From an uncultured virus (IMG/VR IMGVR_UViG_3300003178_000005) (lineage: Duplodnaviria > Heunggongvirae > Uroviricota > Caudoviricetes), in IMG/VR virus record IMGVR_UViG_3300003178_000005: DNA of 63,395 nucleotides; one strand, 5' to 3'. This document shows, piece by piece, positions 4,756-8,756 of this stretch (positions are counted from its first letter, which is position 1; each line of letters starts with the position of its first letter). The position numbers were made by a program, and so were the translations under genes. The notes below the pieces were generated by a model. It ran no database searches. It had not been told where the DNA came from and was given only the letters and a program-made list of their open reading frames with translations.

Positions 4756-4950
4756 ATGACAAAAAAATACAACCTAAAAAAAGAACTGTCACAAATGGTC
4801 GGCTTTGAGATAGCCGACGCAATTGAAGCATCCGTGCCAAAGTCTGTAATGGCAGACCTCGCACGAATATTAAGCAACAGGCTATACGCCATGAAGCACA
4901 ATGGCACATCAGCCAAAATCACCATCTTGGAGAAGAGTCCTCAGCGATGA
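4756..4950 (+). CDS. Hypothetical protein
   Basis: 64-aa ORF with plausible composition. Confidence 0.5.
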   Translation: MTKKYNLKKELSQMVGFEIADAIEASVPKSVMADLARILSNRLYAMKHNGTSAKITILEKSPQR

Positions 4951-6361
4951 TGTCTCCATAGTTTGTTCCGTAATCGAGAATAAATAGAGCATCCGATTCG
5001 TCAAAATGACGGTTGAGGATTCCATAAATCTCCTTAATGTCTTCCTCTGTGGCATTAAGTCCATGACTCTCTATCATGCTCTCGATAATCGGGAACATCC
5101 ACTCTCCATCACTTCCGTCATCAAACCCTGCGAGACTATATACTTCCTCTTCGTCTTTGTTTTTTGATGTTTGTGTATTCTCTCTATGGTTAGTTCCGTA
5201 TCCGTAGCTACCCTCGCCGTATCCATACAGACTTCCATAACCGTAGTCCCAGTCGTCCCAGTCGTCCAAATAGCCCCACACATCGTCTTTTTTTGAGCCT
5301 TTTTTTGACCCATATGAGTACTTTCCCCGCTTTAGGTATGAGTATGCCTGTTCAATTCTGTTTGGCTCAACATTTGATATGTCAGGCTGATAATCCATGC
5401 TGTAAAGCATCTCAAGGATTATCTCAAGCATTGGATATTTTTTCATTTCCGCACCAAATGCTCCGACAAAATGAAACTTTGAGAATATGTCTGACGCCAC
5501 ATCCCCAAGCACTTTCTCTGGACCAATCTTATCTTCGCCTTCGACAGCTTCAGGCTTTATGATTGAGATTGTAGGAGTCTGACAATAATCGCCATCAACG
5601 CCTCCGTCATCAGCTGGCTTCAGGTTCACGATACGTGTCTCTGTTGTATAGATTTCACACTCGGTTCCATCAATATACATGACAGAGTCAGTTTGATAGA
5701 AGTCTTTTGTATTCTTCTGTCGATAGATTACACCTGGCGATTCAGGGTCCTTTCCGAGGTCAATACTCGAAAATCCAAATCTTCCTGGGTGCCTATGTAT
5801 TGAACCAAAATTGCCCTCTTTGAACGACACGCTGTATCCCATTTGTTTAAGGGCACCAAAGAATGGAATCTGAGTAAGAATATCGCTAGCAACCTTGTTG
5901 CTGGCCTCTTTGACCTTCTCTGCCTCATTGTCGATATCATCAAGCTCGTAGTCTACAGACCCTGTAGATACCTCTTGGTCGAAATTATAAAAGGATGTCG
6001 GAATCGAGAACACAACCTCAAAACCATCCTTCTCTATGTGAACTGCAAGAGACCTGTAGTGCACCTGAAATTCGCTTGTTCCAGCCCTTGGAAGGCACAT
6101 CTCTGTTATGGTATTCAATGTCTTTCCATCAAAGAACACAAACACAAGCTTGTCCGAGCGCTTTGTGTCAATTGGCTTCTTGAGCGTTTTCTTGACTGGG
6201 TATGTGTATGTTTTTACCCCTCCATTGCTGCTGTATCCATTTGCACCCCCTTTAAAGCCAAGTGTTTTTCCCGTTTTTGCCTTAGGCTTTCCTTTTCCTG
6301 ATTTTGCTTTAACAGGAAGGTTGTCAACCTTGAATCCTATTTTGTTTTTATTTTTACCCAT
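4919..6361 (-). CDS. JAB/MPN+ (JAMM) metalloisopeptidase-domain protein
   Basis: GSIHRHPGRFGFSSID (H189, H191, S198, D201) with an upstream Glu (SEFQV); Lys-rich N-terminus and Tyr/Gly/Asp low-complexity C-terminus. Confidence 0.75.
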   Translation of the reverse strand: MGKNKNKIGFKVDNLPVKAKSGKGKPKAKTGKTLGFKGGANGYSSNGGVKTYTYPVKKTLKKPIDTKRSDKLVFVFFDGKTLNTITEMCLPRAGTSEFQVHYRSLAVHIEKDGFEVVFSIPTSFYNFDQEVSTGSVDYELDDIDNEAEKVKEASNKVASDILTQIPFFGALKQMGYSVSFKEGNFGSIHRHPGRFGFSSIDLGKDPESPGVIYRQKNTKDFYQTDSVMYIDGTECEIYTTETRIVNLKPADDGGVDGDYCQTPTISIIKPEAVEGEDKIGPEKVLGDVASDIFSKFHFVGAFGAEMKKYPMLEIILEMLYSMDYQPDISNVEPNRIEQAYSYLKRGKYSYGSKKGSKKDDVWGYLDDWDDWDYGYGSLYGYGEGSYGYGTNHRENTQTSKNKDEEEVYSLAGFDDGSDGEWMFPIIESMIESHGLNATEEDIKEIYGILNRHFDESDALFILDYGTNYGDIIAEDSSPRW

Positions 6362-7442
6362 CTCTTTCCTCCGTGTTCTCTTCAGCGCTTTCCTCTACAG
6401 GAGCGCTCTCCTCTTCTCTCGACTCATCTTTCACTATTGGGTCTGTTCCTGCTGCAAATCCAAGAAATCCAGCACTGACCAACTGACACGCACACACGAA
6501 ATCTTCATACTCATATGTGAGTACTTCGTGAAAATACAAACTGAGAATGTTCATATTGGACAGAACATACAAGCTCGTGAACGAATAATTGCTCAAGTCT
6601 CCAACACACGTGCTGCCACCAGACGTTGAATATGTATCAACGTTTCCACTAAGCATTGGGAAGTAATTTCCTGACATATATGCTCCACCAGTGCTTCCTT
6701 TCCACGACTTAATCATTCCGTAGTATGGATACACTATTCCTCTTGTAGCCAGGTGAACAGGAATAAGGGCTTCACGTATCTCGCTTCCACCCTCTCTGAA
6801 CGGTATTAGGCATCTCTGGACGCCATCTAGGAGCGCCTTTCTCGCAGTATCACGAAATGACTCTCCTGGGGTATATCTCACCTCTGGAAGATATCTGTTT
6901 TCTCGAATTGCAGATATCAGGCTTATGATTTTTGATGAGTATCTGTCTACCATTGTTTCGTGCGGAACATGCTCTCTACCTGATGCATACGGATACACAA
7001 TAATCGTAAATGTGTCGGAAAGCTTAATTTCCTTCGTCATAATCATAGACGCTATCACCGGATGCAAAGGATTAAGTTTTTTCCCTCCGTCAACAATTAC
7101 CATCCCATAGAATGAGCCCATATTTGTGTCATCCGTGAACATTTTTGCATAGGCAGCGAGTATCCTGATGTTCGCATTCGGAACCTTTAGGATGTCAGCA
7201 TCCCTCACTCTTGATTGAGGCTCGCCAATAAGCTCATTGATGTTCATACAGTCTTCATGGTCATAGCTTCCATCACCAGCAGGAACAACACTGCTTGTGT
7301 CTCTCATTGGAAAAACTACACTCCCGTCTCCATACACATAGCTAGACCGTGATAAGTTTACGCTTTCATTCGTGTTCTTTTCCTGCACATCAATGATTTC
7401 CTCATTAATTGCTGCGTGAATCATGTTTAATTGATTTACCAT
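6354..7442 (-). CDS. Putative E2 (ubiquitin-conjugating)-like protein
   Basis: C-terminal FPMLSGNV-x8-GSTCVG resembles the E2 HPNV...G.xC.G active-site motif (Cys279); lies between the E1 and JAB genes. Confidence 0.55.
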   Translation of the reverse strand: MVNQLNMIHAAINEEIIDVQEKNTNESVNLSRSSYVYGDGSVVFPMRDTSSVVPAGDGSYDHEDCMNINELIGEPQSRVRDADILKVPNANIRILAAYAKMFTDDTNMGSFYGMVIVDGGKKLNPLHPVIASMIMTKEIKLSDTFTIIVYPYASGREHVPHETMVDRYSSKIISLISAIRENRYLPEVRYTPGESFRDTARKALLDGVQRCLIPFREGGSEIREALIPVHLATRGIVYPYYGMIKSWKGSTGGAYMSGNYFPMLSGNVDTYSTSGGSTCVGDLSNYSFTSLYVLSNMNILSLYFHEVLTYEYEDFVCACQLVSAGFLGFAAGTDPIVKDESREEESAPVEESAEENTEERDG

Positions 7443-7457
7443 CTTTACCTCCTATTG

Positions 7458-8399
7458 CTACACTACTATTGACAAGTCGTCTGCAAGCTTGTACGAATGT
7501 ACATCTTTCCCAAACGGCTCTTCAATTTTTTCATACTTGCTTTCAATGTAGTTTTTAGCATTGAACTCAAATATCACCTCGTCTTCCTTTTTGTAGCTGT
7601 CGTCACTTAGCACGTACACAAGATTCTCAGCAGCCTTGAGCATATTCAGAAAGAATACGCCTAGATTTATTGTCCCATACGACTCGACAGTTAGGTCTGA
7701 GTCTACTTTTGGCTTATACACAAAAGCAACATTGTTTCCAGAGTGGCCTCCAAATATGAAGTTGTATTTGTTTAGCATATCTCTTGTTTCAAAATCTGGA
7801 GCGCCGAAAAACACAACATCGTCACCAACATCACCTATAAACTCTTCAGTAAGGTAATATTTGTGCAGCATAACCTTTTCAGCTAGATTTTCGTCCTCGA
7901 AAATATGAAGCTTATTTAGTCTTTCGCCAAACGAGCACTGAAAGTTCGTTAGGTCTTTGTAGATTCTCATAACGTTCGTAAACGAGATGTTGTCAGCCTC
8001 ATAGATGTGTAGCTTTTTAAACAGGTCGTCAACGTTAACTCTGTACGCAAGAAGCGACAAGAAATGAAGCACATTGATGCTAAGCCCACCATATCCGACG
8101 GACACAAACGTAAGCCCTTTTCTTTTGAGCTTTCTCATAGCAACTTTGAGTCTGGACATGTCTACTCCAGCTATTCTAAGCATAACGTTAAACGGCACAT
8201 GTCTTACGCCGATGAGCGATGCGAGCATTGGTGACATTGTTCTTGTGTCAAAGTTGTATATTTGTGTGTAATCCGCCATATAGGTCGGCGCCAGTGTATC
8301 AACCAGCTTTCCTGATAAGTCTTCAGACCTTACGTTTAGGCCAGTAAGATATCGGTGTCTAATCCCATCCGAGATGTGTCTAGATAAACTAATATTCAT
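7458..8399 (-). CDS. ThiF/MoeB/E1-like adenylyltransferase
   Basis: Rossmann loop FVSVGYGGLS, LHIYEADNISFTNVMR (about D.D.V..SNL.R), NK, and FFGAPDFETR. Confidence 0.75.
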   Translation of the reverse strand: MNISLSRHISDGIRHRYLTGLNVRSEDLSGKLVDTLAPTYMADYTQIYNFDTRTMSPMLASLIGVRHVPFNVMLRIAGVDMSRLKVAMRKLKRKGLTFVSVGYGGLSINVLHFLSLLAYRVNVDDLFKKLHIYEADNISFTNVMRIYKDLTNFQCSFGERLNKLHIFEDENLAEKVMLHKYYLTEEFIGDVGDDVVFFGAPDFETRDMLNKYNFIFGGHSGNNVAFVYKPKVDSDLTVESYGTINLGVFFLNMLKAAENLVYVLSDDSYKKEDEVIFEFNAKNYIESKYEKIEEPFGKDVHSYKLADDLSIVV

Positions 8400-8416
8400 T
8401 TATTCCCTTCCTTTCT

Positions 8417-8449
8417 AAAAAAAAGCCGAAGAGGAATACTCCCCTTCGC
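8417..8449 (-). terminator. Intrinsic terminator between the modifier gene and the E1-like gene
   Basis: Minus strand GCGAAGGGGAGTATTCCTCTTCGGC followed by T8. Confidence 0.7.
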
Positions 8450-8459
8450 TGTATTGGCA

Positions 8460-8756
8460 TTACATGCCGCTTGAAGCCTTTGTCTTGAGAGACTCAGTCT
8501 CAACGCTTTCAACAACCGGAGCTTCGGTAGATGCCGCATCGTCTGCGCCAAGGTCATGCGCAAGCTCACGAAGCTCTTTTGCGATGCGAGCTGCACGCTC
8601 TTCTGCGGTCTCAGCACCACTTGACGCTTTTGTCTTGAGAGACTCGGTCTCAACATTTTCTACAACAGGAGCCTCTGTAGTCTCCAACTCTTTTGCTGCT
8701 GCGAGAGCTTTCTCAGCCGCTGCTCTCAGTTTCTCTGCTGTGGTCATTTCTGCCAT
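8460..8756 (-). CDS. Tandem-repeat small protein, candidate ubiquitin/Pup-like modifier precursor
   Basis: Two roughly 50-aa units, each ending TEAPVVE[N/S]VETESLKTKASSG (Gly47, Gly97), followed by a single Met. Confidence 0.65.
   Translation of the reverse strand: MAEMTTAEKLRAAAEKALAAAKELETTEAPVVENVETESLKTKASSGAETAEERAARIAKELRELAHDLGADDAASTEAPVVESVETESLKTKASSGM
8466..8680 (-). repeat. Intragenic direct repeat of about 65 bp (2 copies)
   Basis: About 8466-8530 versus 8616-8680; differences are almost all synonymous. Confidence 0.9.

What the first reader, a model, noticed from the sequence alone, without database searches (positions are those of the whole stretch)
4919..8756. Phage E1-E2-JAB conjugation operon whose modifier is a tandem, non-beta-grasp 'KTKASSG' polyprotein
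Seen in the sequence: four co-oriented, closely spaced genes behind one promoter-like motif (8839-8848): a 98-aa repeat protein, a ThiF/E1-like Rossmann protein (GYGG, EADNISFTNVMR), a protein with an E2-like NV-x8-GSTCVG motif (Cys279) and a JAB peptidase (HRHP-x5-SxxD). Established knowledge: E1+E2+JAB is the core of bacterial ubiquitin-like conjugation systems, where JAB exposes a C-terminal Gly on a beta-grasp Ubl. Inference: no beta-grasp Ubl is present here. The first gene instead encodes two helix-plus-acidic-coil units, each ending in Gly (47 and 97) and capped by one extra residue, like polyubiquitin. This may be a phage-encoded tagging system using a Pup-like disordered modifier, aimed at host proteins or at countering host Ubl/CBASS-type defences.
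Basis: partly seen in the sequence, partly recalled or inferred. Interest (0 to 1): 0.93.

Follow-up and report, generated by a model that had tools for sequence, protein, structure and literature searches.

The report
Phage peptide-tagging operon, ubiquitin-like enzymes
A large uncultured phage carries a four-gene operon that looks like a stripped-down ubiquitin system whose tag is a short glycine-ended peptide made as tandem copies, a combination not yet described in print.

Summary

Gene 4 keeps all five JAMM residues in 117 of 117 homologues. No profile method recognises it and I could not fold it.

The key new result concerns gene 1. A small gene ending ...K-x-x-S-G plus 0-3 cap residues lies just upstream of the E1-like gene in 7 of 10 loci with upstream sequence, down to about 30% enzyme identity. 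It has one, two or three units. Its 19-codon core shows 7-12 synonymous against 0-2 non-synonymous codon changes.

The best reading (about 0.5) is a phage-encoded E1-E2-JAB-type system that trims and conjugates a peptide lacking the ubiquitin fold. Targets and biological role are unknown. This is a new variant of a known kind, and I found no paper describing it.

The parts
8835..8870 (-). AT-rich promoter-like stretch (TTGAAC, 19 nt, TATATATATAT) upstream of gene 1. Its status is uncertain.
   Evidence: Read directly. The sigma-70 consensus scan does not list it.
8460..8756 (-). Modifier precursor, 98 aa: two head-to-tail units plus a one-residue Met cap.
   Evidence: ORF and unit boundaries. 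Homologous small genes lie upstream of the E1-like gene in L003, L004, L001, L002, L008 and L020. In alignment A8, Ser49 and Gly50 are invariant in 12 units from 7 loci.
8616..8756 (-). Unit 1 (aa 1-47): Ala/Glu/Lys-rich N-terminal part, acidic linker, then the conserved end APVVENVETESLKTKASSG.
8466..8615 (-). Unit 2 (aa 48-97), ending APVVESVETESLKTKASSG. Codon 98 (8463-8465) is the Met cap.
8417..8448 (-). Terminator-like hairpin plus T-run between the modifier gene and the E1-like gene. It may act as an attenuator that lets the peptide be made in excess.
   Evidence: A hairpin with a T-run sits at the same place in L003 (4953-4966) and L004 (2199-2222).
7458..8399 (-). E1/ThiF-fold adenylating enzyme, 313 aa. 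It has a roughly 90-residue helical N-terminal part and no conserved cysteine.
6354..7442 (-). Probable UBC/E2-like protein with large insertions, 362 aa. The candidate catalytic residue is Cys279, and the C-terminal tail is acidic.
   Evidence: 327 representative homologues. G113, P239, N267 and C279 are invariant in 87 sequences. AF2 pLDDT is 91.7. Fold evidence is weak.
4919..6361 (-). JAMM-motif (JAB-like) protein, 480 aa: Lys-rich N-terminus, conserved core (aa 72-268, nt 5558-6148), Gly/Tyr-rich low-complexity stretch and acidic C-terminus.
   Evidence: 117 homologues. E97, H189, H191, S198 and D201 are invariant in 44 sequences. The motif regex hits 117 of 117 family members and 0 of 202 E1-/E2-like proteins. 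The fold was not tested.

Best explanation
This is a phage-encoded, ubiquitination-like peptide-tagging system.

Proposed steps:
1. Gene 1 is translated, probably in excess over the enzymes, as a polyprotein of two units. Relatives have one or three units. Each unit has an N-terminal Ala/Glu/Lys-rich part, an acidic linker and a strongly constrained tail ending ...ESLKTKASSG.
2. The JAMM-motif protein cuts after the Ser-Gly of each unit. This removes the short cap and separates the units, exposing a C-terminal glycine.
3. The E1-fold enzyme has no conserved cysteine and is probably a homodimer like ThiF, MoeB and BubCD. It adenylates that glycine with ATP.
4. Cys279 of the UBC-like protein attacks the acyl-adenylate directly and carries the peptide as a thioester.
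5. The peptide is then passed to an amine, most likely a lysine of a target protein. The JAMM protein may also reverse this step.

What is shown: the E1 fold, the co-inheritance and gene order of the four genes, purifying selection on the peptide tail, and the invariant Gly, Cys and JAMM residues.

What is inferred: every chemical step, the UBC and JAB folds, and the existence and identity of targets.

For: 2. Conserved module. The order E1-like, E2-like, JAB-like was found by HMM in the window, L003, L002, L008, L011, L012, L013 and L019. L019 holds only an E1 fragment. In L020 the A1 HMM missed the E1-like gene, and only hhalign recovered it (probability 84.6%, E 6.8e-6). Junctions are short or overlapping in most of these loci.

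3. Partner peptide. A small gene lies directly upstream of the E1-like gene in 7 of 10 loci that have upstream sequence. The unit count is 1 in L001 and L002, 1 with no cap in L020, 1 plus a partial unit in L008, 2 in the window, and 3 in L003 and L004. The caps are M, SL, FNA, C, TV, K or none. Ser-Gly is invariant in 12 of 12 units. Among 8 units of the near clade, the 19-codon core shows 7-12 synonymous against 0-2 non-synonymous codon differences in 27 of 28 pairs; the other pair shows 2 and 2.

5. JAMM residues are present in 117 of 117 family members.

6. Published precedents, taken from abstracts I read. [quoted passage not shown] A Bil DUB pre-processes its Ubl to expose Gly (PMC10557695). 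BubCD is an E1 lacking a catalytic cysteine (PMC11601596 section list).
Against: 1. No sequence library recognises any of the four proteins. This covers Pfam, PHROGs, NCBIfam and PADLOC (0 relevant hits for 19 proteins).

3. The JAB fold was not tested. hhalign against 11 genuine Prok-JAB sequences aligned only 13 columns around HxHP at probability 0.8%. That is no better than the E1-like control at 1.2%. The His-to-Ser spacing is 6 residues, not the canonical 7.

4. The three most distant loci (L011-L013) have the enzyme trio but no such small gene in the locus. A profile search of five records found none either: the three holding L011-L013, two of them 97-100% complete, and the two JAB-only records of L010 and L014.

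5. L010 and L014 carry the JAB-like gene without E1- or E2-like genes. These are fragmentary records.

6. No target, E3 or acceptor is identified, and there are no expression data.
Confidence: 0.5

Rival explanations
1. This is RiPP-like peptide maturation, not protein tagging. The E1-fold enzyme works like MccB or PaaA: it binds the short ribosomal peptide through its extra N-terminal part and adenylates its C-terminus to build a modified peptide product. The JAMM protein only releases units from the multi-core precursor. The 362-aa Cys protein performs a further tailoring step.
Against: In these peptides the invariant part is the C-terminal tail ending in Gly and the variable part is the N-terminal region. 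That pattern is what an E1 tail-recognition site predicts. An invariant Asn...Cys protein with E2/UEV-dominated structural neighbours accompanies the E1 in every complete locus. No transporter, immunity or other tailoring gene is conserved next to the module.
Confidence: 0.2
2. The small gene is not a substrate that gets conjugated. It may be an abundant acidic phage protein, such as a scaffold- or internal-peptide-like product cut at repeated sites by the metalloprotease. The E1-like and Cys proteins would then act on something else.
For: The three most distant loci keep the trio without the small gene. In those phages the trio follows the topoisomerase II genes, which is a DNA-metabolism setting. 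The JAB-like protein has a Lys/Arg-rich N-terminus. The JAB-like gene occurs alone in L010 and L014.
Against: The small gene stays glued to the E1-like gene across about 30-65% enzyme identity, and its invariant residues are exactly the terminal Ser-Gly. In L002 an HNH gene has been inserted between them without loss of either. No head or tail genes flank the module in the window.
Confidence: 0.12
3. This is a sulfur-carrier pathway. The Gly-ended peptide is adenylated and converted to a thiocarboxylate, as with ThiS, MoaD, CysO and QbsE. The JAMM protein uncaps it like Mec+ or QbsD. The sulfur goes into a cofactor or a nucleic-acid modification.
For: ThiF and MoeB are among the best structural matches. 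The pairing of E1, JAB and a Gly-ended carrier is a known sulfur-transfer theme (Iyer et al. 2006, PMC1779556, passages read).
Against: The searches run found no rhodanese, cysteine desulfurase or sulfur-acceptor enzyme in the operon or its conserved neighbours. The carrier is too short for a beta-grasp fold. A UBC-like Cys protein has no place in known sulfur-carrier pathways (that last point is from my own knowledge).
Confidence: 0.05

Closest known systems
Bil (BilABCD) bacterial ubiquitination system (PMC10557695, abstract read; PDB 8tz0/8tyz)
   Different: The Bil modifier is a beta-grasp Ubl, and the Bil E1 has an inactive adenylation domain plus a mobile catalytic-Cys domain. Here the modifier is a 42-52-residue peptide in 1-3 tandem units, and the E1-like enzyme is 313 aa with no conserved Cys. 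There is no PADLOC or Pfam similarity, and the system is carried by phages, not by a host defence island.
Type II CBASS Cap2 (E2-E1 fusion) and Cap3 (JAB) (PMC10097602, abstract read)
   Different: Cap2 is one fused protein and its substrate is the CD-NTase enzyme. Here E1 and E2 are separate genes, the substrate is a dedicated small repeat peptide, and no CD-NTase or effector was found nearby.
Bub pathways (PMC11601596, abstract and section list read)
   Same: The E1 lacks a catalytic cysteine, and a peptidase cleaves a precursor to generate the functional modifier.
   Different: Bub uses oxyester (serine) intermediates, a peptidase-E1 fusion and a Ubl-E2 fusion. Here an invariant Cys is the candidate carrier and all genes are separate.
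MccB/MccA and PaaA (E1-fold enzymes of peptide natural products; PDB titles; their function is from my own knowledge)
   Same: An E1-fold enzyme with an extra N-terminal part acts on the C-terminal region of a short ribosomal peptide encoded just upstream.
   Different: These systems have no E2-like or JAB partner. Their peptides are a few residues long and do not end in an invariant Gly.
Polyubiquitin genes (from my own knowledge)
   Same: They have head-to-tail units that each end in Gly, with the last unit capped by extra residues that must be removed.
   Different: Their units are 76-residue beta-grasp domains. Here the units are 42-52 residues with a variable N-terminal part.
Pup and UBact (from my own knowledge)
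   Same: They are small modifiers without a ubiquitin fold.
   Different: They are ligated through a C-terminal Glu/Gln side chain by glutamine-synthetase-like PafA, not by E1/E2-type enzymes.

Membership tests
E1 / ThiF / MoeB adenylating superfamily | Rossmann-type adenylation-domain fold | tested here: met
E1 / ThiF / MoeB adenylating superfamily | Gly-rich nucleotide loop and conserved Asp/Asn/Arg/Lys/Asp nucleotide-binding residues | tested here: met
   GYGG102-105, D136, N142, R145, K163 and D202 are invariant in 38 sequences. Their assignment to ATP/Mg binding is by analogy from my own knowledge, not from a residue-level superposition.
E1 / ThiF / MoeB adenylating superfamily | Recognised by the curated sequence model (Pfam ThiF) | tested here: not met
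   No Pfam family reached E<=1 apart from one chance-level hit. None of the 41 homologues carries a precomputed Pfam domain. The profile against PDB sequences gave 0 hits.
Canonical (eukaryote/Bil-type) E1 | Catalytic cysteine domain forming an E1~modifier thioester | tested here: not met
   No Cys column is conserved above 15 of 38 sequences. The protein is only 313 aa.
UBC / E2 fold | UBC core fold | tested here: inconclusive
UBC / E2 fold | Invariant catalytic Cys a few residues after an Asn-containing loop | tested here: met
   N267 and C279 are invariant in 87 of 87 sequences. In the model they lie between a beta-meander and a helix.
UBC / E2 fold | His of the HPN motif (motif recalled from memory) | tested here: not met
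   The residues before N267 are Ser-Gly in the window and in the consensus. Iyer et al. 2006 note that bacterial E2-like proteins also lack this His (passage read).
UBC / E2 fold | Recognised by curated sequence models | tested here: not met
   Pfam found no UBC or Prok-E2 family in 87 members. PADLOC found none. The profile against PDB sequences gave only 4 chance-level rows.
JAB / MPN+ (JAMM) metallopeptidase | The Glu ... His-x-His-x7-Ser-x2-Asp motif (canonical spacing recalled from memory) | tested here: inconclusive
   E97, H189, H191, S198 and D201 are invariant in 44 sequences. The regex hits 117 of 117 members. However, the His-to-Ser spacing is 6 residues. The 11 genuine Prok-JAB sequences fetched here show 7.
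JAB / MPN+ (JAMM) metallopeptidase | MPN fold | not tested
JAB / MPN+ (JAMM) metallopeptidase | Recognised by sequence or profile methods | tested here: not met
   Pfam found no JAB family in 44 members. PF14464 gave no match in 5 viral records. Profiles against PDB gave 0 hits. hhalign against 11 Prok-JAB sequences gave probability 0.8%.
Ubiquitin-like (beta-grasp) modifiers | Beta-grasp fold | tested here: inconclusive
   No fold prediction was made. Units are 42-52 residues, shorter than any beta-grasp modifier I know of. There was no Pfam hit.
Ubiquitin-like (beta-grasp) modifiers | C-terminal Gly, often followed by a removable extension | tested here: met
   Ser-Gly is invariant in 12 of 12 units, and the caps are 0-3 residues long.
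Type II CBASS | Adjacent CD-NTase and effector genes | tested here: not met
   The PHROG, Pfam and PADLOC scans of neighbouring genes returned no such family.

The most novel reading that the evidence does not exclude
Large phages carry their own complete ubiquitin-type conjugation cascade: a Cys-less E1, a highly diverged E2 and a JAMM peptidase. Its 'ubiquitin' is reduced to a roughly 45-residue peptide without the ubiquitin fold, made as a polyprotein and recognised mainly through an invariant ...K-x-x-S-G tail. The phage uses it during infection to mark host or phage proteins. That would make it the first viral E1-E2-DUB system in the prokaryotic world, and the first E1/E2-type modifier with no beta-grasp fold that is a dedicated tag rather than an enzyme tail.
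Probability: 0.4. Interest if true: 0.92.

Novelty: new variant of a known kind. Interest (0 to 1): 0.8.

Why it matters
Ubiquitin-type conjugation in bacteria is currently known as a host defence tool (Bil, type II CBASS, Bub). A phage-borne version would show that viruses of bacteria also write such marks.

It would also show how little of ubiquitin an E1/E2 cascade needs: a flexible tail ending in glycine. That bears on how the ubiquitin system originated.

All three enzyme families are invisible to Pfam, PHROGs, NCBIfam and PADLOC, yet they are widespread in metagenomes. The Cys protein alone has 327 representative clusters at 50% identity. Naming them would annotate many 'hypothetical' genes of large phages.

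A 45-residue, genetically encoded, enzyme-attachable tag could also serve as a tool.

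Tried and rejected
- Co-folding. I submitted two copies of the E1-like protein, ATP and one Gly-ended unit. The tool returned 'no answer' (score 0.01 against a mark of 0.32), which counts neither for nor against binding.
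- ESM Atlas look-ups. For the JAB-like and E2-like proteins the Atlas's own models are poor (pLDDT 0.35 and 0.30), and the nearest clusters are unnamed viral proteins.
- GenBank phages (INPHARED). There was no blastn match to the operon and no tblastn match to the E1-like, JAB-like or E2-like proteins.
- No RNA holder is listed for the operon DNA, so no reads were laid.
- The Prok-E2_B family search over 301 genomes found nothing, in the control genomes either, so I could build no E2 alignment for a profile comparison.
- The degenerate DNA pattern for the near-clade peptide tail had 0 matches in IMG/VR.
- A profile of the peptide units found nothing in five viral records. This shows little, given a 46-column model.
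- The 122/133-aa gene upstream in L001 and L002 looked at first like the partner. It matches the C-terminal third of DUF7566/phrog_4263, an early gene of T5-like phages with no E1/E2/JAB neighbours, so I set it aside.
- A 67-aa ORF ending ...LLRG before the lone JAB-like gene of L010 is not Gly-ended in its L014 orthologue, so I treat it as coincidence.
- I considered a head-morphogenesis reading (scaffold plus prohead protease). It survives only as part of rival 2, because no capsid, portal or terminase gene flanks the operon in the window.
- The antisense ORF 8464-8856 (130 aa) is an artefact. The synonymous-change pattern fits the minus-strand frame.

Full report
**Setting.** The window has about 40% GC and is dense with short genes. 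They include an endolysin, an HNH endonuclease, a DNA-polymerase exonuclease subunit, primase-like and GroES-like genes, three tRNAs and a tmRNA. The database copy of the 362-aa protein lies on a 187,395-bp contig. Relatives of the operon lie on IMG/VR viral contigs of up to 281 kb. The operon DNA and its three enzymes have no match in 50,697 GenBank phage records. This is therefore a large uncultured phage.

**Observation.** Four minus-strand ORFs lie at 8460-8756 (98 aa), 7458-8399 (313 aa), 6354-7442 (362 aa) and 4919-6361 (480 aa). The gaps between them are 60, 15 and -8 nt. The sigma-70 scan did not call the proposed promoter, and the stretch is only promoter-like. A hairpin with a T-run lies between gene 1 and gene 2 (8448-8427). 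A comparable hairpin sits at the same place in L003 and L004. This suggests the small gene is transcribed in excess of the enzymes.

**Gene 2 is an E1-fold enzyme.**
- Pfam, PHROGs, NCBIfam and PADLOC find nothing. A profile of 38 homologues finds no PDB sequence.
- The AF2 model is confident (pLDDT 91.4, pTM 0.91).
- Foldseek returns 129 PDB matches at E<=0.001. They are headed by ThiF (6.5e-7), then UBA7, MccB, PaaA, UBA5 and Cap2.
- Invariant residues include GYGG102-105, D136, N142, R145, K163, GAPD199-202 and R16 in the N-terminal helix.
- No cysteine column is conserved above 15 of 38 sequences. The enzyme therefore cannot form a conserved E1 thioester. In this it resembles ThiF, MoeB, MccB and BubCD, the last described as an E1 lacking a catalytic cysteine in PMC11601596 (section list).

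**Gene 3 is probably a much-elaborated UBC-like protein.**
- An exhaustive profile search finds 327 representative homologues at E<=0.001. None of the 87 scanned has a meaningful Pfam family.
- Across those 87 sequences only M1, G113, P239, N267 and C279 are invariant. Cys279 is the only conserved cysteine.
- The model is confident (pLDDT 91.7). It shows a four-strand meander (215-259), then a loop with N267, C279, a helix (288-295) and a long helix (312-330). From my own knowledge this order recalls the UBC active-site region.
- BFVD gives only one uncharacterised phage homologue.
- I read this as suggestive of a UBC-like fold, not as established.

**Gene 4 carries a JAMM-type motif.**
- 117 homologues were found. 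In 44 aligned sequences E97, H189, H191, S198 and D201 are invariant.
- The regex H-x-H-x(6,7)-S-x-x-D hits 117 of 117 family members and 0 of 202 E1-/E2-like proteins. Among 361 six-frame ORFs of the window and loci it hits only the 10 JAB-like genes.
- Against this, the His-to-Ser spacing is 6 residues. The 11 genuine Prok-JAB sequences I fetched show 7.
- hhalign against those 11 sequences aligned only 13 columns at probability 0.8%, no better than a control.
- Pfam, PF14464 and the PDB profiles gave nothing.

**Gene 1 is the main result.**
- In L003 (E1 61% identical) the gene upstream of the E1-like gene encodes three units, each ending ...APVVESVE[AT]ESLKTKASSG, followed by the cap SL.
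- L004 also has three units, with the cap FNA.
- In L001 and L002 (E1 37-39% identical) a 43- or 46-aa ORF ending ...GKSKSG-C or ...GKAKSG-TV sits in the same place. In L002 an inserted HNH gene separates it from the E1-like gene.
- L008 (36% identical) has ...LKTAAKSG-K preceded by a partial unit ending KAKSG.
- L020 lies on an 83-kb contig binned in a MAG, with its JAB-like protein 30% identical. It has a unit ending ...NAKSG directly at the stop, followed by a 113-aa gene. Next comes a 538-aa protein whose C-terminal half matches the E1-like profile (hhalign probability 84.6%, E 6.8e-6), then the E2-like and JAB-like genes.
- In all, 7 of the 10 distinct loci with upstream sequence have the gene. 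Ser-Gly is invariant in 12 of 12 units.
- Among the 8 near-clade units, the 19-codon tail differs at 7-12 synonymous but only 0-2 non-synonymous codons in 27 of the 28 pairs (the 28th pair: 2 and 2), both within a gene and between phages. The peptide is therefore translated and strongly constrained, while the N-terminal part varies.
- The three most distant loci (L011-L013, contigs of 137-281 kb) keep the trio immediately after the topoisomerase II genes. I found no such small gene there.
- L010 and L014, which are fragmentary records, have a long JAB-like gene without E1- or E2-like genes.

**Mechanism.** The most economical reading follows the logic of Bil and type II CBASS.
1. The metallopeptidase trims the caps and separates the units.
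2. The Cys-less E1 adenylates the exposed glycine.
3. Cys279 of the UBC-like protein takes the peptide as a thioester.
4. The peptide is delivered to an amine.

Three published precedents support single steps, all from abstracts or section lists I read. Cap2 thioesters the C-terminal Gly of cGAS, a protein without the ubiquitin fold (PMC10097602). A Bil DUB pre-processes its Ubl (PMC10557695). A Bub E1 lacks a catalytic Cys (PMC11601596). Every chemical step here is inferred, and no target is known. A co-folding attempt gave no verdict.

**Rivals.**
- An MccB-like peptide-maturation pathway is the strongest. E1-fold enzymes with peptide substrates match equally well.
- A reading in which the small protein is merely a processed abundant protein.
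- A sulfur-carrier pathway.

**Novelty.** Three full-text searches found no paper on a phage E1-E2-JAB module or on a peptide modifier of this type. A comparative review of 224 jumbo phages contains none of the terms JAB, ThiF, E1-like or MoeB (PMC7824862, term search). Iyer et al. 2006 describe phage tail Ubl-JAB pairs and bacterial E1-E2-JAB operons, but in the passages shown they describe no phage E1-E2-JAB trio.

Earlier unchecked notes of this scan report short, ubiquitin-fold-free, sometimes tandem peptide tags beside E1/E2/JAB genes in bacteria and mobile elements. I did not test them. They suggest the theme is recurrent, which tempers 'categorically new'. I file the finding as a new variant of a known kind: new enzyme families, a new modifier type and a new (phage) carrier.

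Noticed in passing
window 62391-63343: A cluster of tRNA-Arg(tct), tRNA-Ser(gct), tRNA-Asn(gtt) and a tmRNA with the tag ANNTAYSGNAALAA lies at the end of the window. It is either phage-encoded or marks a genome end or junction.
   Followed up: no
window 3383-4315 (-): A 310-aa very acidic protein lies two genes downstream of the operon. It has three repeats of an ...EMTYLEKV..VVDEFAAG... unit and a Lys-rich C-terminal third. It has only chance-level Pfam hits and no PHROG hit.
   Followed up: partly
window 4919-6361 (-); also L003 7039-8412, L008 7044-8273, P0102, P0117, P0170: The JAB-like proteins combine a Lys/Arg-rich N-terminus with a Gly/Tyr-rich low-complexity stretch (GYGYG-type) and an acidic, variable C-terminal extension of up to about 300 residues. 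The composition recalls condensate-forming or nucleic-acid-binding regions.
   Followed up: no
window 6354-7442 (-) C-terminus; alignment A2: The acidic tails of the E2-like proteins end either in ...R-D/N-G (the window and one close relative, P0044) or in a C-x-x-C motif such as CESCSA, seen in several relatives. The meaning is unknown. The Gly-ended tail could itself be a substrate.
   Followed up: no
L002 5164-5826: A 220-aa ORF is inserted between the modifier gene and the E1-like gene. By eye it looks like a homing HNH/AP2-type endonuclease, but it has no Pfam hit.
   Followed up: partly
L010-L014: In the most distant phages the module, or the lone JAB-like gene, directly follows type II topoisomerase genes (DNA_topoisoIV and Toprim). 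In L010 it is followed by a Metallophos nuclease-like gene and QueC. This is a DNA-metabolism neighbourhood, unlike that of the window.
   Followed up: partly
window 49755-51653 (-): A 632-aa protein matches phrog_1735 (function unknown) at E 2.5e-210 but has no Pfam family. It is a strongly conserved phage protein of unknown role.
   Followed up: no
window 8464-8856 (+): A 130-aa antisense ORF overlaps the modifier gene. It is a by-product of the Ala/Glu/Ser-rich repeat on the other strand, because the codon-change pattern fits the minus-strand frame.
   Followed up: yes
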